Below are positions 7,062-56,992 of a stretch of DNA of 64,000 nt, one piece after another. The notes beneath the pieces are model-generated. The model was not told where the DNA came from. It made no database searches and saw nothing but the letters and a program-made list of their open reading frames with translations. The position numbers and the translations under genes were made by a program. Origin of the DNA: an uncultured Bacteroidota bacterium (GTDB taxonomy: Bacteria; Bacteroidota; Bacteroidia; JABEUT01); the NCBI GenBank assembly GCA_903901055.1, contig CAIUPO010000107.1, forward strand, positions 12,707 to 76,706, in the 5' to 3' direction. How positions within the stretch are numbered: position 1 is the first letter of the stretch; every line of letters starts with the position of its first letter.

Positions 7062-8141
7062 ATGAACATCAACTTAAATAACTACGAGGCATATTTTTTA
7101 GACTACCATGAAGGTAGCCTCTCTCCTGCTTTGGTAAAGGAGTTGATGGAGTTTGTAGCCCAGCATCCTGAATTGAAAGAAGAGTTGGAAAGCTTTGAAC
7201 CGATTATACTTAAAGACGCGGAAGGGATTGAATTTAATGGAAAAGAAGATCTGAAAAAAGATTTAAAAGGAATCAACGCAACCAATTTCGAGGAATCTGC
7301 AATAGATTACGTGGAAGGAAATTTAACCCCTGAACTGCAAAAAGAATTAAATACTTTCATCCTTCAAAACCCGCATTACAAAAGTGAACTGGAGTTATTT
7401 ACCAAAACGAAATTAATTGCTGATACCAATATTATTTTTGAAGATAAATTCCTTCTTAAGAAAGGCAGAAGGAAGCCTGAAGCATATTTTTATTGGTCGG
7501 CTGCGGCTTCCATTGCAATAATTATTGTTTCCTATTTTCTGCTTCATAAAAATCCAACTCCGGATGGAAATATCATTACAAAACAGAATCAGCAAAAAGA
7601 TAGTAATGTAGTTGTGAAGCATACGAATAAATTGATTGATACTGGAAATTCTACCCCGAAGGTATTACCAAATCACACTACTGATAATTCCGTGAAAGAT
7701 AATCAGGTGGCGGCCTCTAAGAATTCAGACAAGCATAAACATAGAAGTAACCCACTAAATAAAAATGGAAATTCAAGTTCGGTGGCTAGTAGAAATAGAA
7801 AGGCAAACAAACTACATAGTTTACCAGCCCCAACTCAAAAAGATATTCCTGCTGAACCGGAAAACGAACTTGTTGCTTTTAATGGAAATTTATATGACAC
7901 ATCTATGTTCATTACCAATACTCCCTCTGCAAAGGAATATATGATTATTGAGCCTGAACAAAAGGAAAAGAAGAAAAATAAATTCCTTGTAATGCTTGCC
8001 ACCATTACATGTAAAGGGCTACATACAATTACGGGGCAACATATTGAATTCGAGAAAAAATATGATTCCGACACTACCAATATTGTAGCCTACCAGCTTG
8101 ACCTTGGAAATAAAAAATATGAATTTCCGGTAAAAGAATAA
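7062..8141 (+). CDS. putative anti-sigma factor (single-pass membrane protein with internally duplicated N-terminal motif)
   Basis: The start is 9 nt after the sigma gene. The cytoplasmic N-terminus carries two copies of Y..(H/V)EG.L(S/T)P.L.KEL..F..Q.P....EL. One TM helix follows, then a low-complexity extracytoplasmic region. Confidence 0.5.
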   Translation: MNINLNNYEAYFLDYHEGSLSPALVKELMEFVAQHPELKEELESFEPIILKDAEGIEFNGKEDLKKDLKGINATNFEESAIDYVEGNLTPELQKELNTFILQNPHYKSELELFTKTKLIADTNIIFEDKFLLKKGRRKPEAYFYWSAAASIAIIIVSYFLLHKNPTPDGNIITKQNQQKDSNVVVKHTNKLIDTGNSTPKVLPNHTTDNSVKDNQVAASKNSDKHKHRSNPLNKNGNSSSVASRNRKANKLHSLPAPTQKDIPAEPENELVAFNGNLYDTSMFITNTPSAKEYMIIEPEQKEKKKNKFLVMLATITCKGLHTITGQHIEFEKKYDSDTTNIVAYQLDLGNKKYEFPVKE

Positions 8142-14356: not shown

Positions 14357-14929
14357 TTGGAAGTAGACATACAGGAATTAAAAGCCGGAAATGAGCAGGC
14401 CTTTCGTTTGCTTATTGACGCGTACGGAAAGGCTATTTTCAATCTTTGCCTGGGCATGATTCCTAACAGGGATGATGCCGAGGAACTAACGCAGGACGTA
14501 TTTATTGAAGCTTATAAGCACATTGCTTCTTTCCGAGAGGGTTCCCATATAAAGACCTGGCTCTTCCGCATTGCCTTAAACAAATGCTACGACCACATAA
14601 AATTTAGTAAGCGGAAAAAGAGGTATGGTATTATGCAACCCTTATTAGATAAGGACGATAACCCGATAGAATTACCTTCCAATTTTCAGCATCCGGGCAT
14701 AACCCTTGAAAACAAAGACCATGCCAAAGCACTATATGGTGCCCTGAACGCTTTGCCCGAAAACCAGCACACGGCTTTTACTATGTATGAAATGCAGGGA
14801 ATGGATTATAAACAAATTGCAGATACTATGTCTGTAAGTGTTTCTGCTGTTGAGTCTTTACTATCCCGTGCAAGGGCAGGTTTACGTAAAAAGCTACAGG
14901 ATTACTATACACATAACGCAAGTTCTTAA
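14357..14929 (+). CDS. ECF sigma factor
   Basis: 190 aa. Sigma-70 r2 (ELTQDVFIEAYK) and r4 (MQGMDYKQIADTMSVSVSAVESLLSRAR). Confidence 0.8.
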   Translation: MEVDIQELKAGNEQAFRLLIDAYGKAIFNLCLGMIPNRDDAEELTQDVFIEAYKHIASFREGSHIKTWLFRIALNKCYDHIKFSKRKKRYGIMQPLLDKDDNPIELPSNFQHPGITLENKDHAKALYGALNALPENQHTAFTMYEMQGMDYKQIADTMSVSVSAVESLLSRARAGLRKKLQDYYTHNASS

Positions 14930-16169: not shown

Positions 16170-18878
16170 ATGTTAAAGAAATTTTCCCCAATCATTATTT
16201 TATTGTGTATAGTACAAACCACTTTTGCCCAAATGTGGGGCGGAGGTGGAATGGGTGGTGGCATGAAAGGCGCCAAAGCAAAAGTAGGGCATTTTTATGG
16301 CAAGGTGGTTGATAGTTTAACCGGCAAATCAGTACCGTTTGCACCTGTTCAGTTGTCGGGCCAGCAATGGGATTCTGTTTCAAAAGCCATGAAAACAGTG
16401 GTTATTCAAGGATTGCTTACCGGAGATAACGGCGAATTCAGTTTTGAAAAACTGGCGGTGATGGGTACCTATACCATTGAAATTAACGCAATGGGATATA
16501 AACCTAAATCAGTTGTGACTTTTTTTGATATGAGTAAACTGATGAAAGCCGGACAAAAAATGCAATCGCAAAGCAGTGGTGATATGCCTAACATGTCGAA
16601 TGTGGAAAGTTTGCTGAACGCAATTGATAAGGATTTGGGAAATATTAAAGTGTCGTCCATAGCAAACCAGTTAAAGGATGTTACCGTGAATGGCAGTTCC
16701 CCGCCAATGGAACTTAAACTTGACAAACGTGTTTTTGATGTAAGTAAAAGCCTTACCACAGAGGGCGGTACAGCCGAAGATGTATTGAAAACGATCCCTT
16801 CGGTAAATGTGGATATTGATGGGAATGTTAAAATGCGCAATGCTTCGCCGACTATATATGTTGATGGGATGCCGACAACTTTAACCATTGACCAGATTCC
16901 GGCAGGGCAGATAGATAAGATAGAAGTGATTACTAATCCTTCAGCAAAGTATGATGCGTCTGCGGGCACGGGAGGTATCATCAATATTATTCTGAAACAT
17001 AAAAACACATTGGGTTATAATGGCTCACTGCGTTTGGGTGCCGATGAATATGGAAAAGTAAATGGCGGTTTTGATTTTAACGTTAGGCAAGGAAAAATAA
17101 ATGTGTTTCTCGATTTGCATGTACACCAGATAAAGCATAAAATGTATGGAAGTGAATATAAAGACACTGTTGCAAATCAGTCAAGCACTTCTCCTAAAAT
17201 TATCGACTACCAGAACGATACCAATACCATGGAGGGCTATTTTGCTTTTGCCAGATTGGGTTTCGACTACTTTATAGATAACCGCAATACATTAACTGTT
17301 TCCGGAATGCTAGTACGCGGAGATTTTAACTCAACCGATTTATTGCACACAAATAATGTTTATACTGATACACTTTCTTTGCCCAAGTTTATAAATGAGA
17401 ACTCTGCCTCCAGCAGGGTTTTTACGAGCCCCGGAGTTTCATTACTATACAAACACCTATTCCCGAAGGAAGATGAAAATATTACTGCAAGTGTAACCGC
17501 TAACCAAGGCTCTTCATCGGGAACCGGAAATTTTGACTTCCTGAATTACGACTTTAATAATGTGCTTTTATCATCGATAAACCAGATGCAGCAAAGCGGT
17601 GGCACAAACAAGTACTATGTGGGGAAACTGGATTATACCGACCCTTTATCTAAAAAAATAAAACTGGAAGCTGGTGTACAGTATACCTACAGCCAGGTAA
17701 ATTCGTACAGCAATTTCTATCTGAACGATATTTTCTTTAACGATGAAAGCAATACATACCTGTTCAATCAGTATGTGTATGCGGGTTATTTTACCTTCAG
17801 CGAAGACCTGAACAGCCGCTTAAGTTATCAGATAGCACTGCGTATGGAGCAATCAGTATATAACGGTACTGAAACCTCCGGTAGCACTTCAACGCCTTTG
17901 AACAATCAAAATTTGTTGAAACCTTTTCCGGGTGCATTTGTTACCTATCACCTTACCGAGAAAAGCGATTTGCAATTCAGTTACACTACCCATATTACAC
18001 GCCCTTCGTTCGCACAGTTGGTTGTGAAAAATAATTCGAACCCTGAGAATATTCAGGTGCCCAACCCTAACCTGAAACCCGCGTATCAGAACTCTTTCGA
18101 GTTTAATTATATGAATACGTTTAACAAACGTAATTCATTATTGCTGTCAGCATATTACAAAATCACGTACGATATTATTTCTACCCAAACAATCTCTTCG
18201 CAATACGATCCGATTTTAAAATTGCAGATTGACAGCACCACGTATGCTAATGCTAACTATGGCTACCAGGAAGGTGCAGAGGCAACCCTGCAAAACTCTA
18301 TTGGTAACTGGCTCGACATTACAACCAACTTTAATCTCTTTGAATCGGGTGTAAATGCTACCAACCTGAATATTCCAGATACTGCAAAAAAGTTCCTGAG
18401 CTATTTTGCCAAACTGAATCTAACTTTCAAACTACCTAAGAATTTCACTATACAGTTGAACGGAAGTTATCTTTCCAAGTCAAAAATTTCACCTGAAAGT
18501 GGCGGCGGTGGTGGCGGACGATGGGGTGGTGGCGGAGGCTATGGTGGAGGAATTTCTCCTTCTACCAGCGGATATATAGACCCAAATTATTCGTTGGATG
18601 TAGCTATTAAAAAAGAATTTTTCAAAAACAAAGCTTCAGTTACCTTGAATTGCAGGGATATTTTTGCAACTGCAAAAAATGGCTCTGAAGTTGTTGCAAC
18701 CTCGCTCGAAGGAGCTCCACTCTATTTCCAAACTACCAGCCGCACAAGGGATGTAAGGTTCTTCTCAATCAATCTTAGCTACCGCTTCGGACAAATGGAT
18801 GTTTCTATTTTCAAACATAAAAATAATAATATAGACGCCGGACCTGATATGGGTGGCGGTGGCGATAGCGGCAACTAG
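16170..18878 (+). CDS. outer-membrane beta-barrel family protein with N-terminal carboxypeptidase-regulatory-like domain (TonB-dependent-receptor-like)
   Basis: 902 aa. Signal peptide, GKVVDSLTGKSVPFAPVQL (CarbopepD_reg-like), and a long C-terminal region with beta-barrel character ending ...LSYRF. Unusual poly-Gly inserts (GGGGMGGGM; GGGGGGRWGGGGGYGGG; GGGGDSGN). Confidence 0.6.
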   Translation: MLKKFSPIIILLCIVQTTFAQMWGGGGMGGGMKGAKAKVGHFYGKVVDSLTGKSVPFAPVQLSGQQWDSVSKAMKTVVIQGLLTGDNGEFSFEKLAVMGTYTIEINAMGYKPKSVVTFFDMSKLMKAGQKMQSQSSGDMPNMSNVESLLNAIDKDLGNIKVSSIANQLKDVTVNGSSPPMELKLDKRVFDVSKSLTTEGGTAEDVLKTIPSVNVDIDGNVKMRNASPTIYVDGMPTTLTIDQIPAGQIDKIEVITNPSAKYDASAGTGGIINIILKHKNTLGYNGSLRLGADEYGKVNGGFDFNVRQGKINVFLDLHVHQIKHKMYGSEYKDTVANQSSTSPKIIDYQNDTNTMEGYFAFARLGFDYFIDNRNTLTVSGMLVRGDFNSTDLLHTNNVYTDTLSLPKFINENSASSRVFTSPGVSLLYKHLFPKEDENITASVTANQGSSSGTGNFDFLNYDFNNVLLSSINQMQQSGGTNKYYVGKLDYTDPLSKKIKLEAGVQYTYSQVNSYSNFYLNDIFFNDESNTYLFNQYVYAGYFTFSEDLNSRLSYQIALRMEQSVYNGTETSGSTSTPLNNQNLLKPFPGAFVTYHLTEKSDLQFSYTTHITRPSFAQLVVKNNSNPENIQVPNPNLKPAYQNSFEFNYMNTFNKRNSLLLSAYYKITYDIISTQTISSQYDPILKLQIDSTTYANANYGYQEGAEATLQNSIGNWLDITTNFNLFESGVNATNLNIPDTAKKFLSYFAKLNLTFKLPKNFTIQLNGSYLSKSKISPESGGGGGGRWGGGGGYGGGISPSTSGYIDPNYSLDVAIKKEFFKNKASVTLNCRDIFATAKNGSEVVATSLEGAPLYFQTTSRTRDVRFFSINLSYRFGQMDVSIFKHKNNNIDAGPDMGGGGDSGN

Positions 18879-18911
18879 TCGGGGCCCGACCGGCAGTCCG
18901 AGCCGGACGGG
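18873..18911. repeat. GC-rich palindromic element, family AACTAGTCGG...CCCGAC, copy A
   Basis: AACTAGTCGGGGCCCGACCGGCAGTCCGAGCCGGACGGG. The TAG inside it is the stop codon of the preceding gene. Confidence 0.5.
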
Positions 18912-18969
18912 CACTTCCGTCATTGCGAGGCTTTGCGAAGCAATCTTACTCAATTGCTAAAAACTTTTA

Positions 18970-19086
18970 CCACTAAGTCCACTAAGATTTCACTAAGCCT
19001 CACTAAGTTTTCTGAGTGTATCTTAGTGTGAATTTTCTTAGTGCACTTAGTGGTGAGAAATAATCAACCATTAAGTTTCACTAAGG
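18970..19086. repeat. block of four direct CACTAAG repeats followed by three inverted CTTAGTG repeats (long imperfect palindrome), copy A
   Basis: CCACTAAGTCCACTAAGATTTCACTAAGCCTCACTAAGTTTTCTGAGTG...CTTAGTGTG...CTTAGTGCACTTAGTGG. A homologous block lies at 54975..55057. Confidence 0.55.
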
Positions 19087-19120
19087 TTCAACCGCTTTTT
19101 ATACTTAAAAACCGCCTAAA

Positions 19121-19260
19121 ATAACAGGAACGTATCAGGAGCCATAACAGGAGCATAACAGGGAAAGAACAGGAACCATAACAGGAAAGTGTGTTTTTAA
19201 TGCTACTTGAATATGAATGAGTTACAAAATCTCCATCTGTTAATAACAGGCCGGAACAGG
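19121..19260. promoter_or_regulatory. array of six A/TAACAGG direct repeats at about 11-12 bp phasing, plus the conserved core TAATAACAGGCCGGAACAGG
   Basis: AACAGG/TCAGG starts at 19123, 19135, 19146, 19157, 19168 and 19180, with two more at 19245 and 19255. A homologous array lies at 54639..54773. Confidence 0.5.
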
Positions 19261-19517
19261 AAATGTGTTTCCAGATTTTTTCTAAAAAAGTCAGCAGGAT
19301 TATAGTTATTTTTGTTTTCATAACACAAAGGTAATTCATCAAATATGCTTTTTGAAAAAGTCATTGACCGGGTGTCCAATTATTTTTGAACAGTGCTTTT
19401 CAAAATAAAATTCCTTTTGTTAGGAATTAAATTAACAGAGATAAAAGAGAGCAAAAAGACACGTATTAGTGGCATTTTGAAAAAGAAGATGTTTAATAAC
19501 TTTTGTTATCTTTGTTT

Positions 19518-21168
19518 AATGAAAAGATTTGTTCTTCTTATATTCATTTTTAGTTTTTCACTTTGTGAGGGGCAGAGTTGGGTGTGGGGGAGGGATTGTT
19601 CTGCAGGATATGATCCGATTTCATGCAACATTGCGGGAGATACGAAAGGAAATGGATTTTTATTTGGATCATTTGATTCAGTAGTATCATTCGGAACCTA
19701 CAAATTGACAGGACCTCCTACAAGAAGGAACGATTATTTAGTAAAATATGATACCCTTGGTAGTATACTTTGGATTAAGCAAATCTATGGTAACCCGGGT
19801 TATATTATTGGCAATACAGATTATTCTGATAACATGTATATTTCGGGCGGATACATTGATTCTGTGCGATTTGATAGTCTTACTTTTGCAAGTATGGCTT
19901 CTCCAGCCTATTTAGTGAAATATTCTCCAAGCGGGAAACTTAATTGGGGCATTCAGTTCACAGGGAACTATATTGCCGCCTCTTCAATTGCATTTGATGA
20001 TTCATCGAATGTCTTCCTGTCAGGATTCACCAAAGGCAGTATGCAATTTGGAACTCTGAATTATACGGGGCCTACCACGAATGAATTCTTTATTGTGAAA
20101 TATAATTCAGCGGGTGTTCCACAATGGGCGCGCTATCCTACTAGTATTGCTTCCGGTAACTCAAATAGTTCTTCTATATTTTGTGATAGACAGGGGAATG
20201 CCTATGTAACTGGCGTATTTCATGACTCCATTATTGTTGGGAGTACCACGTTAAAGAGTAAAGGATCTTCTGATATCTTTCTTGTAAAATTTGATGGAAA
20301 CGGAAATGTGTTATGGGCAAAACAATCGTTTGCACAAACCCGATTTGATGCTATATTATCGAATGGAATGATAACTGATGATGCGAATAATATCTATTTA
20401 GCCGGGCAAATAGAAGGCGTAGTCACTATTGGCAGCACAAACTTGAATATTCCAGGGTTTCCCCCTTCTGTTTACTTGGCTAAATTTGATGAAAATGGGA
20501 ATTCTCTTTGGGTTAAAGTTTCGCAGCCTAGCTTAGCAAATGCCTATAGCCTCACCAGGGATATTTGTGATAACATTTATATGGCTGTAGGTGAAAGCGA
20601 TTCCAGCGAATTTATTATTTCTACAGATACGGTAATAACAAACCCCGGTAATGGTTTATATATAGCGTTTGATACTTCGGGTCATGTTATTTCTTCCGCC
20701 AATCTTTATTCAGTAGGTGACGATTATGATTGTATCGCCTCTAACCCGCGAGGTAATTCTGTTTTTGCAGGAGGTGATATATTAAGCACAATTGTTGTCG
20801 GTAGTGATACATTAACTCCAGTTGGAGAACTCCCTTTTATTGCCCGTTGGAATAATCCAGGGTGCAAAGATGTTAGCAATATTTCATCTGTTTCTTCACT
20901 GCACCAATCTATAATGCTTTTCCCCAACCCCAATACCGGCAAATTCACAATTCAGTTGTCGGGGGTTAGTGGTAATCCCGATGGCTATCAGGAGTCAGTT
21001 GAAATTTATAATGTGCTTGGAGAGAAAGTCACTATTGCGACCCTGAAACAAGTTCAGGGTGACTACAAAATTGACTTAACCAATCAACCCAATGGAATTT
21101 ATCTTTACCGCGTTATTTCGGAAGAAGGAAATTTGGTGGGAGAAGGGAAGTTTGTGATTACTCACTAA
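19518..21168 (+). CDS. T9SS C-terminal-sorting-domain cargo protein with beta-propeller (SBBP-like) repeats, paralog 1
   Basis: Signal peptide MKRFVLLIFIFSFSLCEGQSW. Repeated ...YD..GN..W.KQ... blades. C-terminal FPNPNTGKFTIQLSG...IYLYRVISEEGNLVGEGKFVITH is a Por_Secre_tail-type T9SS CTD. Start taken at the ATG at 19518; the ORF-track start at 19393 lies in the conserved upstream regulatory region. Confidence 0.7.
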
Positions 21169-21173
21169 TACGG

Positions 21174-21296
21174 TTAACCGCAAAGAGCGCAAAGATTTAC
21201 GCCCGCCTGAACGGAACGGGCAGGCAAAGGTCGCTACGCTTTTACACTTGGCGAACTTTGCGGGCTGTTTCTTTGCGGACTTTGCGTGAAATTGTT
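21174..21296. repeat. palindromic GCAAAGTCCGCAAAG / CTTTGCGGACTTTGC element immediately 3' of T9SS paralog 1
   Basis: TTAACCGCAAAGAGCGCAAAG ... CGCAAAGGTCGCTACGCTTTTACACTTGGCGAACTTTGCGGGC ... CTTTGCGGACTTTGCG. Confidence 0.45.
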
Positions 21297-21340
21297 CTTG
21301 ACTAAAATTTCTCTTATCTTTACTTTCTCTAAATCAGGTT

Positions 21341-23074
21341 ATGAAAAAAATAATTTTACTTTTTTTACTATTCATTTTTAGTTTTTCATTTTGTGAAGGA
21401 CAAAAGTGGTTATGGGGAACCCAAGGGACTGTTGCAAGTGGCAACTCATCGGGAGAAGGTTGCGATATAACAACAGATAGATATGGCAACGTTTTTGTGG
21501 GTGGGAATGTATATGGCAATGTGCATGTTGGAATTTATTCTTTAAGTAGTTCCATTAATTATACATCTGCATATTTAATAAAATATAAATCAGATGGAAC
21601 CGTTTTATGGGCAAAACAGTCAATGAATTTTAGCCCAAATGGACAAGGTTTTGAACATAGTATAAGTGCTGATATCTCCGGAAATATATACGCGGCAGGG
21701 GCGGCTTCAAATATTATAACTTTTGGAGTGGATACGGTACATGGAAATTCAAACTTGGGTTATACCAATAGCTTTTTGACTAAATACGATTCTAATGGAA
21801 ATGTTATCTGGGTTCAGCAGTCAAAAGGGAACGCCAGTAATTGTTCGGCTACAGGCTATGGTGCTTGCATTGATAATAATAAAAATATATATTTGACTGG
21901 TGGGTTCGATCAGATAGAATATTTCGACACTCAATTGCTTTCTAATCCCGTTCCAACGGCATTTCTTGTAAAGTATGATTCTTCCGGAAATGTAATTTGG
22001 GCCAAACAATCAAAAAGTTCTCCGGGTACGTCTACAGGAGTAGGTAGCAAAGTGGTTACAGATTCAAGGGGTAATATTTATGTTGCTGGTGGATTTTCAG
22101 ATAGTATACGCTTTGAAAATGATTCACTTTCAACCGTATGTGGTATATCAGGAGGAGATATTTTTTTGGCAAAATATAATTCTACTGGAAATGTTTTGTG
22201 GGTAACACAAGCTAACGTATATACCCCTTCTGCATTTGCGTCAATATACGGCTTTGCGATTGACAAAAATTCGAATACTTATATCACAGGACAATTTATG
22301 GATAGCGTTAGCTTCGGGCCAATTAAATTAATTTCTACAAGCGCTTCTCCTTATGATATTTTTATTGTTAAATATGATTCCAATGGAAATCCAATATGGG
22401 CCAAAACAGCCCAAACGTATTATGGCGCATTCTGGAGTTGTTACTCTATTGCTCCGGATACCAATGGGAATATTTATGTTTCTCTTGGCGGTGGCGGTGC
22501 AGGACCTAACTATGCAATTAAATATGGAACAAGAGTCTTTAGTGTGCCCGGAGTAGTATACGATGGTGCTTCTGTAATAATGAAACTCGATACATCAGGT
22601 AAATTATTATGCGGAAACATAGTTGGAGGTGGAGGTGATGATTGGAATGGCGTAGCGTGCAATCTAGCAGGGAATTGCGTTTATTTTGGTGGTGATTTTT
22701 GGGCTAATGCGGTATTTGGAAAAGATACTCTCAGCCTGCTAGCAAGTGAGGTTCCTTTTTTAGCTAAATGGTTGCCCTGTGGTGAAGTAATTACATCAGA
22801 TAATACCAATCAAAATGTAGATTTACCTTCCCTCTCCATTTTCCCCAACCCATCCTCCGGCAAATTCACAATTCAGTTATCGGGGGTTAGTGGTAAGTCT
22901 TCAGTTGAAATTTATAATGTAATGGGGCAGAGAGTCACTATTGCGACCCTGAAACAAGTTCAGGGTGACTACAAAATTGACTTAACAAGTCAACCCAACG
23001 GAATTTATCTGTACCGCGTTATTTCTGAAGAAGGAAATTTGTTGGGAGACGGGAAGTTTGTGATTACGCACTAA
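21341..23074 (+). CDS. T9SS C-terminal-sorting-domain cargo protein with beta-propeller repeats, paralog 2
   Basis: MKKIILLFLLFIFSFSFCEGQKWLWG signal peptide. The last ~70 codons are nearly identical at the nucleotide level to paralog 1. Confidence 0.7.
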   Translation: MKKIILLFLLFIFSFSFCEGQKWLWGTQGTVASGNSSGEGCDITTDRYGNVFVGGNVYGNVHVGIYSLSSSINYTSAYLIKYKSDGTVLWAKQSMNFSPNGQGFEHSISADISGNIYAAGAASNIITFGVDTVHGNSNLGYTNSFLTKYDSNGNVIWVQQSKGNASNCSATGYGACIDNNKNIYLTGGFDQIEYFDTQLLSNPVPTAFLVKYDSSGNVIWAKQSKSSPGTSTGVGSKVVTDSRGNIYVAGGFSDSIRFENDSLSTVCGISGGDIFLAKYNSTGNVLWVTQANVYTPSAFASIYGFAIDKNSNTYITGQFMDSVSFGPIKLISTSASPYDIFIVKYDSNGNPIWAKTAQTYYGAFWSCYSIAPDTNGNIYVSLGGGGAGPNYAIKYGTRVFSVPGVVYDGASVIMKLDTSGKLLCGNIVGGGGDDWNGVACNLAGNCVYFGGDFWANAVFGKDTLSLLASEVPFLAKWLPCGEVITSDNTNQNVDLPSLSIFPNPSSGKFTIQLSGVSGKSSVEIYNVMGQRVTIATLKQVQGDYKIDLTSQPNGIYLYRVISEEGNLLGDGKFVITH

Positions 23075-23079
23075 TACTC

Positions 23080-23163
23080 TTAACTGCAAAGTCCGCAAAG
23101 GTCGCTACGCTTTTACACTTGGCGAACTTTGCGGGCTGTTTCTTTGGGGACTTTGCGGTTAAC
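23080..23163. repeat. shorter copy of the GCAAAGTCCGCAAAG palindromic element 3' of T9SS paralog 2
   Basis: TTAACTGCAAAGTCCGCAAAGGTCGCTACGCTTTTACACTTGGCGAACTTTGCGGGCTGTTTCTTTGGGGACTTTGCGGTTAA. Confidence 0.45.
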
Positions 23164-23177
23164 GTATTTAAAGGAAA

Positions 23178-24915
23178 TTAATTCGCGGTCTTTGGCGGCC
23201 AGGTTTTCATAGCTGGATTGTGGAAGGGGCGTGTGGCAGGCGCAATGGTTTTAATAATGGAATCGTAGCGTATGGCATCATTCAGGATTGCAATGCCTTT
23301 TTCAGTTTCCTTATCGTTTTTCAAACCCACTTGTATGCGGCCTTGATCGTAAAAGAAACGGGATGCAATCTCTTCTTCCAGAAATACTTTTATCTCGTCC
23401 TTATTTTTAATCAGGTCGTTCTTTTTAGCCTCGTCCACATCATCTGCAATTTTTGCATAGGCATCTTTCAGGTCGTCGTAATAATTTTCAGTCTGGGTGC
23501 TTTCTTTCAATTGTTTCAACAACTGGTCGGTTTTCGTTATGTATTTAAAATTGCGGCTTCTTACGTATTGAACAAAATCGTTGTACTCGGCATCGGTAAG
23601 CGAAAAGGCAGAAGCTTCTGTTAAAGCAGGATGTTTCTGCACATAAATTGTTGCATAGTTAAAAATTAAATACTGTGTTTGCAGGTTGATAGCAATGGCG
23701 CTGTATTTATGCGGGTCCATTTTAATATCGGGTTCAACACCGCCGCCATCATATACCACCCTGCCGTGTTTGGTGCGGAATGCAGACTTTAATGAATCGG
23801 GCACTTTGCTAACGCTTCCATCGGCATTACGGTGGGTATAATCGAGCACCTGTATGCATCGTCCGCTGGGGATATAATATTTTGCAATGGTAAATTTAAG
23901 TTGGGCATCGTAACTCAATGGTCTTGTAAGCTGCACCAATCCTTTACCGTAGGTGCGTGTACCAATAACAATACCTCTGTCTAAATCCTGGATAGTTCCG
24001 CACACAATCTCGGAAGCCGAAGCAGAGCCGCTGTTTACAAGCACTACCACATGTATGCTGATATCAACAGGATCCAGGGTTGTTAAATCCATGTGATTCC
24101 ATTCTTTCATTCTGCCGCGTGTGTTCACCACCAATTGGTTTTTTGGTTCAAATACATTCACCACATCAATAGCCTCATTCAGTAGGCCACCGGGGTTTCC
24201 GCGCAAATCTAAAATCACTCCTTTCAGGTTCTCATTTTTTTTCAATTCCACCAACGCATTGCGAACATTTTTTCCGGCATCTTCTGTAAATTCCGACAGG
24301 CGTATATATCCGATATTATCAGCCACCTTGCCATAATAGGGCACATTACTAACTCTAATTGCTTCCCGTGTTAACACCTTTTCTACTGGAGCAGTGCTAC
24401 CCGGAGATAGAACCATCATTTTGAGTTGTGTGCCGGGTTGTCCTTTTAAAAGTTTACCTACATCATCAGTTGATTTTCCGGCCAATGCAATACCATCCAC
24501 ACTGATGATTTGGTCGCCGGCTTTAAGTCCCGCTTTCGCAGCAGGTGAACCTTCATAAGGCTCGGCAACTTCAATCTTGGTACTGTCTTTCTGGATGAGC
24601 GCTCCAATGCCACCATATTCACCGGTAGTCATAAAACGGAAGTCTTCAATCTCAGATTCCGGGATATAATCGGTGTATGGGTCAAGTGATTCGAGCATGG
24701 CATCAATTCCGGTTTTCATAAGTTCTCCTGGCTTAATGGTATCTACATAATGCAGGTCGAGTTCCCTCAACATAGTAGTCATGATGTCGAGGTTTTTGGA
24801 TATTTCAAAATAGTTGTCTGTGAAACTATAAGACAGGAAAGCATAGCCACCTATGGCAAGCATAGCTATTACTGCGCGTAGTTTTTTTAATTTTTGAAAA
24901 AGGCTTTTCATCATG
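23178..24915 (-). CDS. C-terminal processing (tail-specific) peptidase, family S41, with PDZ domain
   Basis: PDZ (GLKAGDQIISVDG) and S41 core (VLVNSGSASASEIV, DLRGNPGGLL). The probable start MMKSLFQKLKK... at 24915 gives a signal/TM; the ORF-track start at 25040 is likely too far upstream. Confidence 0.75.
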
Positions 24916-25129
24916 GTTGTAGAGTTATGGAACAGGATCGTAACCCGTGTGCTTATTAAATGGGTTGCAGGACAGAATTCTTTTTGCTGCAAGCCACGAA
25001 CCTTTAAATGGCCCGTGTTTTTGAATGGCTTGTTTGCCATATTCCGAGCAAGTAGGGGTGAAGCGGCAAGTAGGGGGCAGCCACGGTGAGATCATCTTTT
25101 GGTAGATCTTTATTAACCCAATAAGAAAT

Positions 25130-25540: not shown

Positions 25541-26683
25541 TTACTTTTTACCTTTCCCGGCTTTTTTAACAACCTTTTTAGGTGCTGGTTTCTTTTTAGC
25601 CGGAGCAGGCTTGCTCTTTTTAACAACAGGTTTCTTTTTTACAGGAACCGGTTTGCTTTTTTTGGCAGCAGGCTTACTTTTTTTGGCAGCAGGTTTCTTT
25701 TTAGCCGGAACTGGTATAGGTTTTTTAACAACCGGTTGTACTTTCTTTGCCACAGGCTTAGGTGCCGATGCAACTGGCTTTACTTCCGGTTTTTTAGGAG
25801 CAGGTTTAGCTACAGCAATAGGTTTAGCTACAGGTTTTTCCTCTGCTTTAGGTGCTACAATTACTTTTGGAGCAGCCGGTTTCGGAGCTTTTTTAGGTTT
25901 TGGGGCCTTACCAATATCTGCAAATGGATTATCTGAAAGTATGTACTCGCCACGTAAATAAAGGTCCATAGCCGATGCCATAGATGGTGAGTTAGGTTGA
26001 GGGGCAACTACATGAAGTTTTAACCCTGCGCCTGTAACCGCTTTGGCAGTCTGTTCGCCAAAAGCAGCAATTACAGTTTCGTTTTGCTTGTATTCAGGAA
26101 AGCTATTGTAAATGGAGTTAATACCTGCAGAACTAAATAGAACAAGCATATCGTACTCACCGAAATTAATGTCCTTGATATCGGAAAAAACAGCCCTGTA
26201 AAGAGGTGCTTTTACATATTTTATTCCATCCCTGTCAAGAAGGCTGGTATACTCTTCATTCGGAGCATCAGACATTGGCAGAATGTACTTGTCGTCTTTG
26301 TGCTTTTTGCGGATGATATCTACCAAATCAGCATAAGAGTGGTTGCTGAAAAATATTTTACGCTTGCGAAACTGGATATACTTCTGAAGGTAATAGGCAG
26401 TAGTTTCTGAAATGCAGAAATACTTCATTGTTTCAGGAACAATAATGCGCATTTCATTGCATACCCTGAAAAAGTGGTCGACCGCATTTTTGCTGGTCAT
26501 GATAACTGCCGTGTACGACAGGATATCAACGCGGTGCTTGCGGAATTCTTTTGCCGGGATTCCTTCCACTTGTACAAAGGGTCGGAATTCAATTTCTACT
26601 CCAAAATTTTTGGCGATTTCAAAATAGGGAGACCGTTCGAGTTCCGGTTTTGGCTGTGAAATCAGTATTTTTTTAATCTTCAT
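25541..26683 (-). CDS. uroporphyrinogen-III synthase (HemD)-like domain protein with a C-terminal ~150-aa Lys/Pro/Ala-rich histone-H1-like tail
   Basis: N-terminal ILISQPKPE...VEGIPAKEFRK...ILSYTAVIMTSKNAVDHFFRV resembles Bacteroidota HemD-like proteins. The C-terminus is made of KKPAPKK / AKKSKP repeats. Confidence 0.6.
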   Translation of the reverse strand: MKIKKILISQPKPELERSPYFEIAKNFGVEIEFRPFVQVEGIPAKEFRKHRVDILSYTAVIMTSKNAVDHFFRVCNEMRIIVPETMKYFCISETTAYYLQKYIQFRKRKIFFSNHSYADLVDIIRKKHKDDKYILPMSDAPNEEYTSLLDRDGIKYVKAPLYRAVFSDIKDINFGEYDMLVLFSSAGINSIYNSFPEYKQNETVIAAFGEQTAKAVTGAGLKLHVVAPQPNSPSMASAMDLYLRGEYILSDNPFADIGKAPKPKKAPKPAAPKVIVAPKAEEKPVAKPIAVAKPAPKKPEVKPVASAPKPVAKKVQPVVKKPIPVPAKKKPAAKKSKPAAKKSKPVPVKKKPVVKKSKPAPAKKKPAPKKVVKKAGKGKK

Positions 26684-33910: not shown

Positions 33911-33911
33911 G

Positions 33912-35174: not shown

Positions 35175-35210
35175 AGTGCTAATTTAGCCTGATTTCCGCA
35201 TCTACGTGTT

Positions 35211-54558: not shown

Positions 54559-54638
54559 TAATAGTTCGTTATTGCCGGCTGACTGAAATATTTTAAAGCG
54601 AAACATTTTATTTTCGTTATAGAATGAAATTTACAATT

Positions 54639-54773
54639 AACAGGGATGTAACAGGAAGGGGAACAGAAAACATCTGGAAAAATAACAGGAGTTAAACTGA
54701 GAAAGGGAAAACTTAATTCATTGAAAATCATGTTTGTGATTTTTCGTTTTCCTGTTATTAACAGGCCGGAACA
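54639..54773. promoter_or_regulatory. A/TAACAGG repeat array plus palindrome CCTGTTATTAACAGG plus conserved core TTATTAACAGGCCGGAACAG (copy B)
   Basis: AACAGG at 54639 and 54650, AACAGA at 54662, AACAGG at 54684. The palindrome is at 54751..54765. Homologous to 19121..19260. Confidence 0.45.
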
Positions 54774-54974
54774 GAAAATTATTTTATATATAAGAACGCA
54801 CATTATAATATTCGATATAAGTATTATTGGGCATTTTTGTGATATGTGGTTCATCATTTCCATTTATCTTGAAGGGTACTTGTTCTCCTTAAAAACAAAT
54901 ATACTGCATGGAAAAGTGTTTTTTGAAAAAGTCATTGACTTTTGAAAAGTAAAACATTTTACCGCTAAATTTAC

Positions 54975-55057: not shown

Positions 55058-55101
55058 TAAAAAAATCAAATTAACAGGGATAAGAGTGAACAAAAGACAC
55101 T

Positions 55102-55139
55102 AACTAGTGGGACCGAATTAGGTCGGAAGCCCGACTGGC
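55102..55139. repeat. GC-rich palindromic element family, copy B
   Basis: AACTAGTGGGACCGAATTAGGTCGGAAGCCCGACTGG. Confidence 0.45.
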
Positions 55140-55231: not shown

Positions 55232-56992
55232 ATGAAAAAAATAATTCTCCTTATTTCATTATTCATTTTTAGTTTTTCACTTTGTGAGGGGCAGAGTTGG
55301 TTGTGGGAAAGGTCTACTCTGGGGATTGCCTGTAATGTTTCTGTAGCAAGCGATGATAATGGAAATTGCTTTCAGGCTGGTTTCATGATTAGAGATACAG
55401 TATCATTTGGAACGGATACATTGAGAGATAATTCGAATAACTACGATGCTTTCATCGTGAAATACTCACCGGCCGGAAATGTGATATGGGCGAAACAATC
55501 AGAACAAAAAGGCAATCGTATTTATTCTAATGGATATACCATAACTACCGACAAGGATGGTAATGCTTACTTAATGGCAAATTTAATGGATACACTTATT
55601 TTTGATTCAGATACCTTAAAAACACAGGGAAGCGGATTCCCAGATACATACCTTGTAAAATTTGATGCAAATGGAACTGAGAAATGGGCAAGGGAATCAT
55701 CAGTGCCTTCTCCCACTTCTTTTCCTGCTGGCAATTATTCCTCTACTGATGCAAACGGTAATACTTACATCACTGGCTTTTTTATGGACACTGTGAGTTT
55801 TGGCAACGATACTTTGAAGTGTTTAATAGATTCTGCCGGTGATACTTTTTTAACCAAGTATGATGTAAATGGAAATGAAAAGTGGGCTAGGCAATCTGCT
55901 GGGTTTAGCCCATATGGTTCTGAAGCGCGCTTTGTAGCGGCAAATAATAGCGGTAAAGTTTTTATTGCGGGCGTATTTTCGGATAGCGTAACATTCGGTA
56001 ATTATAAACTCACTACTGTAGATGCATATAATTATGATATGTTCGTAGTAAGTTATGATACCAACGGTAAGGTTTTGTGGGGCAGACAAGCGGTTATTCC
56101 TTCTTCGGCAAGTGGAGTATGGTGTTATGGAATAACTGTAGATAATGCAGGAAATGTTTATGTTAGTGGTTCATTTATAGATACTGTGGTTTTTGGTACT
56201 GACACACTTATCAATAATGCCTCCAATTATGCATGGTATGCTTTACCTTATATGGAGACTGAGTGTCCATTTATCGTAAAGTACAATGCTTTGGGTGAAG
56301 TGGTATGGACCTTTCAACCTAAAATCCTTGACCATAATCGATGGTTTTCCACTTCATTGTCTTCCGATTGTCATGGTAATATTTATTATATAGGTGATGG
56401 AGGATTGCCAGACAGTTTATGCAAAATAGCTTTTCAATCCGATATTTTATCTCTAATCGATACATCATATTTCGATGTTCCTCTTTATATGATTAAAATG
56501 GATACATCAGGGAACGTGAACTGCGCAACGATTATAAGATGTGGCGGAACTAGCTACAGCAATATGGTCTCGTCAGATACATCAGGCAATTATGTTTATT
56601 TAGGTGCAAATGGAGGGACAGTTCAAATTTTTGGCTCGGACACACTAAACCCATTCAAAAAAAACTCAATGGATGCTTCTTTTGTAGCGAGATGGAACGG
56701 GTGTGATAACCCACTTTACGTTAATAACATTATATTAGATGAAATCAAAATAATTGCCTTCCCCAACCCCTCCAACGGCACGTTCACACTCCAAACTTCC
56801 GGCGCACAAAATTTTTCATCCGCAACTATTGAAATTTATAATGTGCTTGGGGAGAGAGTTAAGAGCGAAGAACTAAGAGCTAAGAGTGAAGAAATAGATT
56901 TAACAGGCCAACCCAACGGAATTTATCTCTATAGGGTTTTAAACGAAGATGGTACTTTATTAGGTCAGGGGAAAATAGTTGTAGAAAAATAA
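55232..56992 (+). CDS. T9SS C-terminal-sorting-domain cargo protein with beta-propeller repeats, paralog 3
   Basis: MKKIILLISLFIFSFSLCEGQSWLWE signal. C-terminal FPNPSNGTFTLQTSG...IYLYRVLNEDGTLLGQGKIVVEK is a T9SS CTD. Confidence 0.7.
   Translation: MKKIILLISLFIFSFSLCEGQSWLWERSTLGIACNVSVASDDNGNCFQAGFMIRDTVSFGTDTLRDNSNNYDAFIVKYSPAGNVIWAKQSEQKGNRIYSNGYTITTDKDGNAYLMANLMDTLIFDSDTLKTQGSGFPDTYLVKFDANGTEKWARESSVPSPTSFPAGNYSSTDANGNTYITGFFMDTVSFGNDTLKCLIDSAGDTFLTKYDVNGNEKWARQSAGFSPYGSEARFVAANNSGKVFIAGVFSDSVTFGNYKLTTVDAYNYDMFVVSYDTNGKVLWGRQAVIPSSASGVWCYGITVDNAGNVYVSGSFIDTVVFGTDTLINNASNYAWYALPYMETECPFIVKYNALGEVVWTFQPKILDHNRWFSTSLSSDCHGNIYYIGDGGLPDSLCKIAFQSDILSLIDTSYFDVPLYMIKMDTSGNVNCATIIRCGGTSYSNMVSSDTSGNYVYLGANGGTVQIFGSDTLNPFKKNSMDASFVARWNGCDNPLYVNNIILDEIKIIAFPNPSNGTFTLQTSGAQNFSSATIEIYNVLGERVKSEELRAKSEEIDLTGQPNGIYLYRVLNEDGTLLGQGKIVVEK

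What the first reader, a model, noticed from the sequence alone, without database searches (positions are those of the whole stretch)
19121..19370. Helically phased A/TAACAGG repeat arrays and a shared 20-nt core upstream of T9SS-cargo paralogs (also present at 54639..54943)
Upstream of T9SS-cargo paralog 1, six direct repeats of ATAACAGGA (or the variant ATCAGGA) occur with 11-12 bp spacing, one helical turn apart, plus two more about 120 bp downstream. The core TAATAACAGGCCGGAACAGG and the box TTTTGAAAAAGTCATTGAC are almost exactly repeated upstream of paralog 3, at 54751..54775 and 54925..54943. There the array additionally forms the palindrome CCTGTTATTAACAGG. TAACAGGG also recurs at both DUF1573 promoters (35250, 35872) and at 55071. 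The phasing and conservation suggest a multimerising DNA-binding regulator, for example a response regulator or AraC/LytTR-type protein, that controls secreted T9SS substrates. No adjacent regulator gene is obvious.
Basis: seen in the sequence. Interest (0 to 1): 0.65.

Follow-up and report, generated by a model that had tools for sequence, protein, structure and literature searches.

The report
Phased TAACAGG sites before secreted-protein genes
Upstream of several secreted (type IX) protein genes in a few uncultured freshwater Bacteroidota lies a conserved ~330-bp non-coding module with 8-10 copies of TAACAGG at fixed 11-12-bp steps; it is most likely a docking platform for one still unidentified DNA-binding regulator.

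Summary
The array at 19121-19187 (six units, period 11) and the one at 54638-54689 belong to an ordered module: array, non-conserved spacer, TTGAW, palindromic core CCTGTTA-W-TAACAGG, variable AT-rich stretch, then a unit holding a leftward Bacteroidetes -7 box (TAnnTTTG) and the palindrome GTCAWTGAC.

I found six full copies in at least three species, probably four, and one partial copy. All four copies whose downstream gene is known precede T9SS cargo genes. Every array unit keeps its distance to the core (+-1-2 bp), although the spacer sequence has drifted to random. The core-to-promoter distance varies from 70 to 137 bp. Units have 7 conserved and about 4 free bases, as in OmpR/PhoB-type direct-repeat operators. 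In one species nearly all sites, including the inverted one, changed CAGG to CAGT together.

A related genome has an empty site with neither module nor cargo. I found no RNA family, conserved RNA fold, conserved ORF, flanking inverted repeats or copy-number variation.

Best reading: a multi-site platform for one sequence-specific, probably winged-helix, DNA-binding protein that controls these cargo genes. The binder and the regulatory outcome are inferred, not shown. Phage replication-origin iterons share the same heptamer and period, which gives a weaker rival.

The parts
19121..19187 (+). Array W1: six direct units (T)AACAGG / TATCAGG spaced 11-12 bp, at offsets -122 to -65 from the core site
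   Evidence: The orthologous arrays in L073 and L076 keep the same unit positions, and the second unit is TATCAGG in W1, K1 and R73.
19207..19211 (+). TTGAA element inside the otherwise unconserved spacer, 37 bp before the core site, preceded by a T-tract
   Evidence: TTGAW sits at -38/-37 in all six copies. The rest of the spacer is 22-37% identical between most copies, against 31% expected at random.
19237..19260 (+). Core W1: inverted half-site CTGTTA, one base, TAACAGG, then CCGG and AACAGG (one inverted plus two direct sites)
   Evidence: Pairwise identity is 88-96% among the four copies compared. The palindrome is kept in R73 and R76, and the third site is lost in R73.
19326..19333 (-). 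CAAAGGTA, which reads TACCTTTG on the minus strand: a leftward Bacteroidetes-type -7 box (TAnnTTTG), 34 bp from the GTCATTGAC palindrome
   Evidence: TAnnTTTG with free 'nn' is found at the equivalent place in the seven sub-module-2 copies (six full modules plus L072), 33-35 bp from the palindrome where that is intact. Promoter function is inferred from the published consensus (own knowledge) and is not shown.
19349..19368 (.). Box TTTTTGAAAAAGTCATTGAC, containing the palindrome GTCATTGAC (19360-19368)
   Evidence: 20/20 identical to 54920-54939. GTCAWTGAC is present in W1, W2, K1, K2 and L072, has one mismatch in R76 and is degenerate in R73.
19428..19472 (+). 45-nt conserved block AAATTAACAGAGATAAAAGAG..GACAC..AGTGG between the box and the start codon of paralog 1
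   Evidence: Shared with 55066-55110 and with L073 around 7672-7720, read directly from the sequences. Its role is unknown (distal 5' leader or a further site).
54638..54689 (+). Array W2: five units at offsets -121, -110, -98, -87 (degenerate) and -76
   Evidence: The closest counterpart is K2 in L005.
54721..54725 (+). TTGAA element of copy W2, 38 bp before the core site
54751..54774 (+). Core W2: CCTGTTA-T-TAACAGG, then CCGG and AACAG
54896..54903 (-). CAAATATA, which reads TATATTTG on the minus strand: leftward -7 box of copy W2, 35 bp from the palindrome
54920..54939 (.). Box of copy W2. Here the palindrome extends to AAAAGTCATTGACTTTT
55066..55110 (+). 45-nt conserved block of copy W2 (includes TAACAGG at 55072). 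It is separated from the box by an inserted ~95-bp hairpin element
19519..21168 (+). T9SS cargo paralog 1 (SBBP repeats plus Por_Secre_tail), the gene downstream of module W1
55232..56992 (+). T9SS cargo paralog 3, downstream of module W2. A proximal promoter-like TTG-N21-TATATTTA lies at 55185-55216
   Evidence: The proximal region is conserved upstream of homologue P0012 in L013.

Best explanation
The AACAGG arrays and the core form one multi-site DNA platform of about 150 bp. A single sequence-specific DNA-binding protein reads the heptad TAACAGG. Molecules stack head-to-tail every 11-12 bp on the 5-7 array units. A further two or three molecules occupy the core, which has one inverted and one or two direct sites, 6-7 helical turns away. 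The intervening spacer carries a T/A-tract and a fixed TTGAW. It lets the two clusters act as one bent or looped nucleoprotein complex.

This complex sits 70-137 bp from a second conserved unit. That unit holds a leftward promoter-like -7 box and a palindromic GTCAWTGAC site. Together they control expression of the T9SS cargo gene(s) that travel with the module.

The closest mechanistic model is cooperative tandem binding of OmpR/PhoB-type winged-helix response regulators to 11-nt direct-repeat units.

Shown: the architecture, its conservation, the invariant register, the concerted motif change and the association with cargo genes. Inferred: that a protein binds, which protein, the looping, and whether the effect is activation or repression.
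For: 1. The array is far beyond chance and is intergenic.

2. There are six full copies in at least three species, probably four: W1 and W2 (window), K1 and K2 (MAG KR3_bin-0479), R73 (L073) and R76 (L076). R73 and R76 lie at the orthologous position downstream of the OMP orthologue (78% and 68% identity).

3. Blocks are conserved and spacers are not. The core is 88-96% identical. The spacer is 22-37% identical in five of six pairs (61% for W2-K2), with 31% expected at random.

4. Array units keep their offsets to the core (-133, -122, -110, -99, -88, -76, -65, +-1-2 bp) in all six copies, so there is no net indel. In the same modules the core-to-promoter distance varies between 70, 82, 101, 113 and 137 bp.

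5. A matrix of 29 units shows seven informative positions (TAACAGG, 1.2-1.8 bits), then R-R, then 2-3 free positions. This is the layout reported for PhoP 11-nt direct-repeat units, with up to six to eight per operator (PMC2275107), and for ArcA sites with 2-5 repeats 11 bp apart (PMC3798270).

6. In R76, 8 of 9 direct sites of array and core read CAGT instead of CAGG. The inverted half-site changed in the complementary way, CCTGTTA to ACTGTTA. One reader therefore sees all sites.

7. The variant unit TATCAGG is the second unit in W1, K1 and R73. Three independent assemblies are identical. The array is therefore stable and is not a slippage tract.

8. The downstream genes are T9SS cargo in W1, W2, K2 and R73. 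In L074 the OMP gene abuts the S41 peptidase gene, with neither module nor cargo between them.

9. In the same window a conserved operator lies beside an RprY-like OmpR-family two-component system. It has three TCATTAACA repeats 11 bp apart, and the third repeat is TAACAGG exactly 19 nt before TAnGTTTG. This lineage therefore uses such operators.
Against: - No binding protein is identified and none is encoded next to any copy. The nearest OmpR-type regulator is 14 kb away. Its likely own sites conserve TCATTAACA rather than TAACAGG.
- No array or core site has the class-II position, 19 nt before a -7 box. The distance to the cargo start codon ranges from about 60 to about 600 bp, and the cargo genes have their own proximal promoter-like boxes. 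Any control must act at a distance or through a distal promoter.
- The only conserved promoter-like element in the module points away from the cargo gene.
- The mean period of 11.4-11.5 bp is longer than one B-DNA turn.
- Homologous cargo genes in other relatives (L013 partly, L014, L016, L072) lack the array. The element is therefore not a general feature of T9SS cargo regulation.
- Only six or seven copies are known, several of them related by descent.
Confidence: 0.55

Rival explanations
1. The array is an iteron-type site derived from, or mimicking, a replication origin. It would be a set of TAACAGG iterons read by a phage- or plasmid-type initiator with a winged-helix N-terminal domain (O-like or DnaD-like). 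An AT-rich stretch and a promoter firing towards the iterons would complete the origin. The element would serve replication, or would titrate an initiator, rather than control transcription.
For: - The pattern TAACAGG-N4-TAACAGG-N5-AACAGG occurs in 45 viral contigs (about 18 sequence families). Two composition-matched control heptamers give 6 and 2.
- In at least six families the array lies inside a gene for a DnaD-like or O-like replication initiator and is followed by AT-rich repeats.
- Other arrays sit between primase and DNA polymerase genes (L037) or beside four DnaA boxes (L058). Several combine direct and inverted copies, as the core does.
- Direct iterons plus an inverted copy of the same motif is the classical iteron/operator arrangement (own knowledge).
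- The concerted CAGG->CAGT shift resembles initiator-iteron co-evolution.
Against: - No initiator, helicase loader or any mobile-element gene lies next to any copy.
- No homologue of the viral initiator N-domain is found in six-frame translations of the window and the bacterial loci.
- The copy at the OMP locus is kept at a syntenic chromosomal position among housekeeping genes in three species. There are at least two copies per chromosome.
- The shared feature is only a heptamer and a period, which winged-helix proteins in general favour.
- The viral hosts appear different, because the initiators are of the DnaD/DnaB_2 type.
Confidence: 0.1
2. The module is a small RNA gene or antisense transcription unit. 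The conserved leftward -7 box drives an RNA of about 250-300 nt that runs through the core and array. The RNA would carry CCUGUUAU repeats that act at the RNA level, as a protein sponge or by pairing with UAACAGG-containing leaders.
For: - TAnnTTTG with free central bases is found at the same place in the seven sub-module-2 copies, 33-35 bp from the palindrome where that is intact. The unit also exists alone in L072.
- TAACAGR is present in the leaders of the cargo genes (19433, 55072) and at the DUF1573 genes.
- The change in R76 is compensatory between the inverted and direct copies, which RNA pairing would also require.
Against: - No Rfam family matches at the gathering threshold or at E<1, apart from sub-threshold miRNA-model hits on an unrelated hairpin.
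- RNAalifold finds no consensus structure beyond the palindrome and no covariation.
- No terminator-like site is found.
- The transcribed 70-137 nt before the core is neither conserved in sequence nor in length.
- An invariant register between array and core with a random spacer, and a 7+4 unit layout, have no obvious meaning in RNA.
- The palindrome has a one-base centre and cannot form a hairpin.
Confidence: 0.12
3. The module is the boundary or landing pad of a mobile T9SS cargo cassette. It would be a recombination or insertion site whose repeats bind a recombinase or transposase, which would explain why module and cargo appear and disappear together and why cargo genes are exchanged.
For: - There is an empty site in L074, where OMP directly abuts the S41 peptidase gene.
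- Different cargo genes follow the same OMP gene and a ~800-bp intergenic region of near-identical length in strains of one species: a 539-aa protein, or a 455-aa protein plus an S74 peptidase.
- Cargo genes also differ in the window and in L013.
- The same module subtypes lie next to unrelated genes in KR3_bin-0479, namely asparaginase and malate dehydrogenase.
- Multiple subterminal binding sites are typical of some transposon ends (own knowledge).
Against: - There is no second end, no terminal inverted repeats and no target duplication.
- No recombinase is adjacent. An XerC-like gene at 49475-50350 lies 4.3 kb from W2 only.
- Copies are conserved only in short blocks, not along their length, so they are old and not recently transposed.
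- Cargo turnover can be explained by homologous recombination in the conserved flanks.
Confidence: 0.08
4. The array is neutral repetitive DNA: a decaying 11-bp minisatellite, or duplicated upstream DNA carried along with paralogous genes, without function.
For: - The downstream genes of W1 and W2 are paralogs (32% identity).
- The genome is rich in small repeat and hairpin elements.
Against: - The blocks are 88-100% identical, while the coding regions are 32-37% identical and the spacers are random.
- Unit positions and even a variant unit are conserved across species.
- There is no copy-number variation between assemblies.
- One species shows a concerted motif change.
- The module also precedes non-paralogous cargo genes (K2 and the R73 variants).
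Confidence: 0.03

Closest known systems
Multi-repeat operators of OmpR/PhoB-family response regulators. Examples are Streptomyces PhoP 11-nt direct-repeat units with up to 6-8 per operator, E. coli ArcA sites with 2-5 repeats 11 bp apart, and pho boxes.
   Same: - Direct repeats lie 11 bp centre to centre.
- Each unit has about 7 informative bases followed by about 4 free bases.
- Well-conserved and degenerate units are mixed in one array, which implies cooperative extension.
- The heptad contains (T/A)TAACA, close to the B. subtilis PhoP TT(A/T/C)ACA (own knowledge).
   Different: - No repeat overlaps a -35/-33 position of a promoter.
- A second cluster with an inverted half-site lies at a fixed distance of 6-7 turns.
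- No cognate regulator gene is adjacent.
- The mean period is 11.4-11.5 bp.
- The binder is unknown, so family membership of the protein is untested.
The operator at the DUF1573 genes of this same window (35211-35254 and 35838-35878), beside an RprY-like two-component system
   Same: - The period is 11 bp and the orientation is the same.
- The third repeat is literally TAACAGG.
- It is conserved in two related genomes.
   Different: - The conserved unit is TCATTAACA, not TAACAGG(A).
- There are three units only.
- It has class-II geometry, 19 nt before TAnGTTTG.
- It is widespread in relatives that lack the module.
Phage replication-origin iterons inside O-like or DnaD-like initiator genes (lambda-type ori)
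   Same: - The heptamer is TAACAGG repeated every 11 bp, in 4-8 units.
- AT-rich DNA follows.
- Some arrays combine direct and inverted copies.
   Different: - The viral arrays are coding, forming the linker of the initiator gene, or lie within replication modules.
- The bacterial module has no initiator or replication gene and sits at a stable chromosomal locus before secreted-protein genes.
Type II plasmid partition centromeres, such as parC of plasmid R1 with ten 11-bp repeats bound by ParR (own knowledge)
   Same: Phased 11-bp direct repeats in two clusters are bound cooperatively into one nucleoprotein structure that flanks a promoter.
   Different: - There is no parM/parR-like gene.
- The location is chromosomal and multi-copy.
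- The repeat clusters are unequal and include an inverted site.
Intergenic TAACTGA heptamer direct repeats of Beggiatoaceae, Cyanobacteria and some Bacteroidetes (PMC4679880)
   Same: A similar heptamer (TAAC...) forms unexplained intergenic direct repeats upstream of genes.
   Different: Those are described as heptamer repeat sets (2-6 copies per set, arrays of up to 43 copies). [quoted passage not shown] Here the units are 11-12 bp, lie far upstream and are in register with a palindrome.

Membership tests
OmpR/PhoB-type direct-repeat operator | Direct repeats with about 10-11 bp centre-to-centre spacing | tested here: met
   TRF gives period 11. Unit offsets are 11-12 bp apart in six copies.
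OmpR/PhoB-type direct-repeat operator | Each unit has about 6-7 conserved bases followed by about 4 variable bases | tested here: met
   Matrix of 29 units, compared with the PhoP direct-repeat-unit logo description.
OmpR/PhoB-type direct-repeat operator | Repeats adjoin or replace the -35/-33 element of the regulated promoter | tested here: not met
   By inspection of the sequences, no TAnnTTTG lies about 19 nt downstream of any array or core site. The DUF1573 promoters do meet this feature.
OmpR/PhoB-type direct-repeat operator | Bound by a winged-helix response regulator, often encoded nearby | not testable with these tools
   The nearest such gene is 33209-33910, 14 kb away. Binding cannot be assayed here.
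Iteron-type replication origin | Phased direct repeats (iterons) | tested here: met
   Viral arrays share the same heptamer and period.
Iteron-type replication origin | The initiator gene encloses or adjoins the iterons | tested here: not met
   Pfam, NCBIfam and PHROG annotation of neighbours. An HMM of the viral initiator N-domain finds nothing.
Iteron-type replication origin | Resides on a phage, plasmid or island | tested here: not met
   The locus is syntenic (ECF-...-OMP-[module+cargo]-S41-RNase P) in the window, L073 and the gene maps. The exact core 16-mer is absent from IMG/VR.
Iteron-type replication origin | Adjacent AT-rich unwinding element | tested here: inconclusive
   The stretch after the core is AT-rich (74% A+T in the pooled spacer and post-core stretches), but all intergenic DNA here looks AT-rich.
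Csr/Rsm-type sponge RNA or other described ncRNA | Match to a curated RNA family | tested here: not met
   Rfam at the gathering threshold found no hits. E-value scans found only sub-threshold noise.
Csr/Rsm-type sponge RNA or other described ncRNA | GGA motifs presented in conserved hairpin loops, or a conserved secondary structure | tested here: not met
   RNAalifold finds 8 pairs, all within the palindrome, with a covariation term of 0.
Bacteroides-type invertible promoter (phase-variation switch) | Inverted repeats flank a promoter-bearing segment | tested here: not met
   No flanking inverted repeats are shared by the copies.
Bacteroides-type invertible promoter (phase-variation switch) | Both orientations are present in populations, with a recombinase nearby | tested here: not met
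   Three assemblies are identical and in one orientation. All six copies have the same internal order. Only an XerC-like gene lies 4.3 kb from W2.
MITE / REP-type mobile repeat | Terminal inverted repeats or a hairpin, with copies similar along their whole length | tested here: not met
   only blocks are conserved. The neighbouring CACTAAG elements do fit this family.
Slipped-strand contingency tract | Repeat number varies between strains or assemblies | tested here: not met
   Assemblies are identical. A position-specific variant unit is conserved across species.

The most novel reading that the evidence does not exclude
A portable expression platform for interchangeable T9SS cargo genes. A dedicated DNA-binding protein co-evolves with its sites, shown by CAGG changing to CAGT throughout one species' module. 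It would build a phased filament-and-loop complex on a ~330-bp module that is gained, lost and kept together with variable secreted-protein genes at fixed chromosomal 'cargo islands'. This would be a lineage-specific control system for secreted-protein repertoires. It might be derived from phage iteron/initiator machinery, and it has no described counterpart in Bacteroidota.
Probability: 0.15. Interest if true: 0.7.

Novelty: new variant of a known kind. Interest (0 to 1): 0.5.

Why it matters
Almost nothing is known about how Bacteroidota decide which of their many T9SS cargo proteins to express. The known PorXY-SigP regulators act on the secretion machinery, and their DNA recognition is disputed (PMC9757075).

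This module is a concrete, sequence-defined candidate control element for cargo genes. Its geometry makes testable predictions: register-breaking insertions should matter, and the CAGT species should have an altered recognition helix in the binder. It also marks small chromosomal islands where cargo genes are exchanged between strains.

The limits are real. It is known only from a few uncultured freshwater lineages, the binder is unknown, and the general principle of phased direct-repeat operators is well established.

Tried and rejected
1. **Coding.** Minus-strand ORFs cover both modules (19088-19342 and 54354-54863). The core is read in different frames in W1/W2 and K1/K2. The peptides are unrelated, and an 11-bp unit cannot hold a reading frame.

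2. **ECF promoter.** GGAAC in the core could be an ECF-sigma -35 element. No conserved -10 follows it, and R73 and R76 lack it (sequences). ECF operons lie upstream of W1 and W2, but not of K1 or K2. The same ECF-OMP operon also exists without the module in L074.

3. **Sigma-70 promoters and terminators.** The promoter and terminator scans gave nothing above the shuffled expectation.

4. **Invertible promoter, MITE, slippage tract.** All were rejected.

5. **Public-database searches with the 20-mer.** The genome scan found only KR3_bin-0479 plus chance coding hits. The metagenome scan found only chance coding hits. The exact pattern missed R73 and R76, which were found later through the OMP orthologue.

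6. **Homologues of the cargo proteins.** The closest are 47% identical or less. Their loci (L013, L014, L016, L072) lack the array.

7. **Contig look-up of P3 (P0002).** It returned no DNA.

8. **First alignment.** It suggested a 15-nt deletion in W1 before the box. A near-gapless realignment showed that this was an artefact.

9. **TAACTGA heptamer repeats (PMC4679880).** These have a different, heptamer-based organisation and a different position relative to genes.

10. **PorX/SigP.** No matching recognition sequence has been described.
Full report
**1. The observation**

The region 19121-19187 is a tandem array of period 11 with 5.9 copies and consensus ATAACAGGAAC. The units start at 19122, 19133 (TATCAGG), 19145, 19156, 19167 (GAACAGG) and 19179. 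A second array has units at 54638, 54649, 54661, 54672 (degenerate) and 54683.

The heptamer TAACAGG occurs 26 times in the window against 6.85 +- 2.5 expected. In 300 first-order Markov simulations the longest phased chain was 2 units, against 6 observed. Its density is 2.29 per kb in intergenic DNA and 0.19 per kb in coding DNA.

The core (19237-19260 and 54751-54774) and the 20-mer box (19349-19368 and 54920-54939) are the best non-trivial self-matches of the region. Two independent assemblies of the same population (L070, L071) are 100% identical to the window over 18860-19530. The downstream genes are SBBP beta-propeller proteins with a T9SS sorting domain. They share only 32-37% amino-acid identity.

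**2. The feature is an ordered module**

Both intergenic regions (18879-19518 and 54559-55231) contain the same parts in the same order:
- the array;
- a spacer;
- TTGAA;
- the core, made of an inverted half-site, one base, TAACAGG, CCGG and AACAGG;
- a variable AT-rich stretch;
- CAAAnnTA;
- about 27 nt;
- the palindrome GTCAWTGAC;
- a 45-nt conserved block (19428-19472 and 55066-55110);
- the start codon.

A ~95-bp perfect hairpin element made of CACTAAG/CTTAGTG repeats is a separate entity. It lies before the array in locus 1 and between the box and the 45-nt block in locus 2.

**3. Copies elsewhere**

An exact-match scan of 185,579 species genomes with the core 20-mer found the module twice in one MAG, the uncultured Bacteroidetes bacterium KR3_bin-0479. 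These are K1 (L003 1880-2210) and K2 (L005 7580-7278, minus strand). The remaining hits were chance hits in coding DNA. The metagenome scan gave only chance coding hits.

Two further copies came from following the OMP gene that precedes locus 1:
- R73 lies in L073, where the OMP orthologue is 78% identical, in a syntenic locus.
- R76 lies in L076, where the OMP orthologue is 68% identical.

The exact 20-mer had missed both. R73 has lost the third core site, and R76 has changed its heptad.

In L074 (OMP 70% identical) the OMP gene is followed after 56 nt by the S41 peptidase gene, with neither module nor cargo gene between them. Module and cargo are therefore present or absent together.

In the L073 species, different strains carry different cargo genes behind the same OMP gene and a ~800-bp intergenic region of near-identical length.

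The downstream gene is a Por_Secre_tail protein for W1, W2, K2 and R73. It is unknown for K1 and R76, because both contigs end.

Homologous cargo genes in other relatives have short upstream regions without the array (L014, L016, L072). L013's contig begins only 144 nt upstream of its cargo gene, so it is uninformative further upstream. L072 carries only the promoter/box unit, in front of a SprB/DUF7948 gene.

**4. Internal geometry**

I anchored every copy on the core TAACAGG. The array units then sit at -133, -122, -110, -99, -88, -76 and -65 (+-1-2 bp) in all six copies. Copies differ only in which lattice positions hold a good site. TTGAW is always at -38/-37 and is preceded by a T/A-tract.

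The 50-bp spacer is nevertheless 22-37% identical between most copies, where 31% is expected at random. The core is 88-96% identical.

In the same modules the distance from the core to the CAAAnnTA element is 82, 137, 113, 101 and 70 bp (W1, W2, K1, K2, R73) and is not phased. This within-element contrast argues for a spatial constraint between array and core. Such a constraint makes sense for proteins bound to double-stranded DNA.

A matrix of 29 units has seven informative positions (T-A-A-C-A-G-G, 1.2-1.8 bits), two purines, and two or three free positions. The second unit is the variant TATCAGG in W1, K1 and R73, so individual units are conserved as such.

In R76, 8 of 9 direct sites of array and core read CAGT. 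The inverted half-site changed from CCTGTTA to ACTGTTA. A coordinated change at about ten sites spread over 140 bp shows that all of them are read by the same factor. It also hints that this factor is dedicated enough to co-evolve with its sites.

**5. The second unit**

A near-gapless alignment of W1, W2, K1, K2 and L072 shows CAAAnnTA, then 25-27 nt (CATGGAAAAgTG..TTTT..GAAAA), then GTCAWTGAC. R73 and R76 fit the same pattern. The palindrome is degenerate in R73 and has one mismatch in R76.

On the minus strand this reads GTCAWTGAC-TTTT(T)C-N20-23-TAnnTTTG. TA and TTTG are invariant and the two central bases are free (TACC, TATA, TATC, TATC, TAGT, TAAC, TAAC). That is the pattern of the Bacteroidetes primary-sigma -7 element (own knowledge of the published consensus). 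The only conserved promoter-like element of the module therefore points leftwards, towards the core and array.

The cargo genes have their own proximal promoter-like boxes close to the start codon. An example is TTG-N21-TATATTTA before paralog 3, which is conserved in L013.

**6. Tests of other readings**

- RNA: no Rfam family matches. There is no consensus structure or covariation, and no terminator-like site.
- Coding: the minus-strand ORFs are not conserved in frame or in sequence.
- Invertible switch: there are no shared flanking inverted repeats and only one orientation is seen everywhere.
- Slippage tract: there is no copy-number variation.
- Mobile repeat: only blocks are conserved, not whole copies.

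**7. The phage lead**

The phased pattern TAACAGG-N4-TAACAGG-N5-AACAGG is found in 45 IMG/VR contigs, about 18 sequence families. Two composition-matched control heptamers give 6 and 2.

In at least six families the array lies inside the gene of a DnaD-like or O-like replication initiator and is followed by AT-rich repeats. This is the lambda-type arrangement of origin iterons. Other arrays lie between primase and polymerase genes or beside DnaA boxes.

No homologue of the initiator N-domain is encoded in the window or in the bacterial loci. No replication gene adjoins any module. I treat this as convergence on a geometry that winged-helix proteins favour, and I keep an origin-like function as a minor rival.

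**8. Candidate binders**

The window encodes an OmpR-family regulator (33209-33910) and kinase (33912-35174). The regulator's best NCBIfam match is RprY at 270 bits, below the 370-bit cut-off.

Their divergent intergenic region, and the promoter of the second DUF1573 gene, carry three TCATTAACA repeats 11 bp apart. The third repeat is TAACAGG exactly 19 nt before TAnGTTTG. This arrangement is conserved in L011 and L012. It is a classical class-II operator and is probably this regulator's own site.

The operator shares TAACA(GG) with the module units, but it conserves different flanking bases. The regulator is 82-91% identical in relatives that lack the module. It is therefore a testable candidate rather than the likely binder. 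The concerted change in R76 argues for a more specialised protein.

**9. Comparison with what is known**

Eleven-nucleotide direct-repeat units are documented for Streptomyces PhoP, with seven conserved positions, cooperative extension and up to 6-8 units (PMC2275107). Arrays of 2-5 repeats 11 bp apart are documented for ArcA (PMC3798270).

The module matches these in unit design and period. It differs in four ways:
- it has a remote inverted-plus-direct trio at a fixed distance;
- no site overlaps a promoter;
- it has an associated leftward promoter/palindrome unit;
- it is linked to exchangeable T9SS cargo genes.

The known T9SS regulators (PorXY, SigP) act on machinery genes and have no such recognition sequence (PMC9757075).

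**10. Verdict**

This is a real, conserved, lineage-restricted composite cis-element.

The most likely mechanism (about 0.55) is a cooperative multi-site platform for one sequence-specific, probably winged-helix, DNA-binding protein that controls the cargo genes it accompanies.

The sequence architecture and its evolution are shown. Protein binding, the identity of the binder, looping and the direction of control are inferred.

Novelty: a new variant of a known kind. Interest is moderate (0.5).

Noticed in passing
window 18965-19054 and 54970-55061; partial copy in L076 around 4640-4690: A ~95-bp perfect hairpin element built from CACTAAG repeats on one arm and CTTAGTG on the other. It folds at -43 kcal/mol (z = -8.3 and -8.8). 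It sits at different places relative to the module in the two loci, so it looks like an independently inserted REP/MITE-like element. It hits only miRNA models below threshold in Rfam.
   Followed up: partly
window 21175-21290 (upstream of paralog 2): A second hairpin element of the same design but with a different word (CGCAAAG ... CTTTGCG). It folds at -54 kcal/mol (z = -4.8). Paralog 2 has no AACAGG module.
   Followed up: partly
window 18919-18946; L005 7610-7697; L013 1-28; L076 4563-4590: Short elements of the type GTCATTGCGAGGC..GCGAAGCAATC. In L005 they form a 31-nt inverted pair, and a variant is GTCATGCCGAAC..TTCGGCATC. They recur at intergenic borders and at contig ends and are probably a dispersed repeat family.
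   Followed up: no
window 18876-18900 and 55113-55141; L073 7107-7135 and 7570-7592: A small GC-rich element (TAGGTCGGAGCCCGACTGGCAAT-like). It recurs right after the OMP stop codon and inside the modules. In L073 it occupies the place of the GTCAWTGAC palindrome.
   Followed up: no
window 35195-35307 and 35830-35943; L011 1192-1338; L012 2551-2730: A conserved operator before both DUF1573 genes. It has three TCATTAACA direct repeats 11 bp apart, and the last is TAACAGG exactly 19 nt before TAnGTTTG. It is divergent from an RprY-like OmpR-family regulator/kinase pair (33209-35174). It is probably that regulator's own class-II site.
   Followed up: yes
window 16170-25040 compared with L073, L013, L074 and the gene maps: The interval between the OMP gene and the S41 peptidase gene is a variable 'cargo island'. 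It holds two SBBP cargo genes here and other T9SS cargo genes in relatives and in strains of one species. It is empty in L074.
   Followed up: yes
viral loci L017-L061 (for example L019 1289-2362, L017 3583-4392, L028 7818-8618): Arrays of TAACAGG every 11 bp lie inside genes for DnaD-like or O-like phage replication initiators and are followed by AT-rich repeats. They appear to be in-gene origin iterons. The heptamer is 7-20 times more frequent in such arrays than in two control heptamers.
   Followed up: partly
window 6568-7053, 14357-14929 and 51626-52174: There are three ECF sigma factor genes in 64 kb, each followed by small membrane-protein genes. Two of these operons lie upstream of the two modules, but the link does not hold in KR3_bin-0479 or in L074.
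   Followed up: partly
window 50627-50633: A single TAACAGG lies 27 nt before the start codon of a 272-aa protein with no family match (50654-51472). All five intergenic TAACAGG copies outside the modules are on the + strand, upstream of + strand genes.
   Followed up: no
window 25587-25726: Repeats of 21, 42 and 63 bp containing AACAGG lie within the coordinates of the HemD-family ORF (25541-26683, minus strand). They are probably a repetitive coding segment.
   Followed up: no
window 41158-47430: A 2090-aa ORF has no NCBIfam match. It was not examined further.
   Followed up: no
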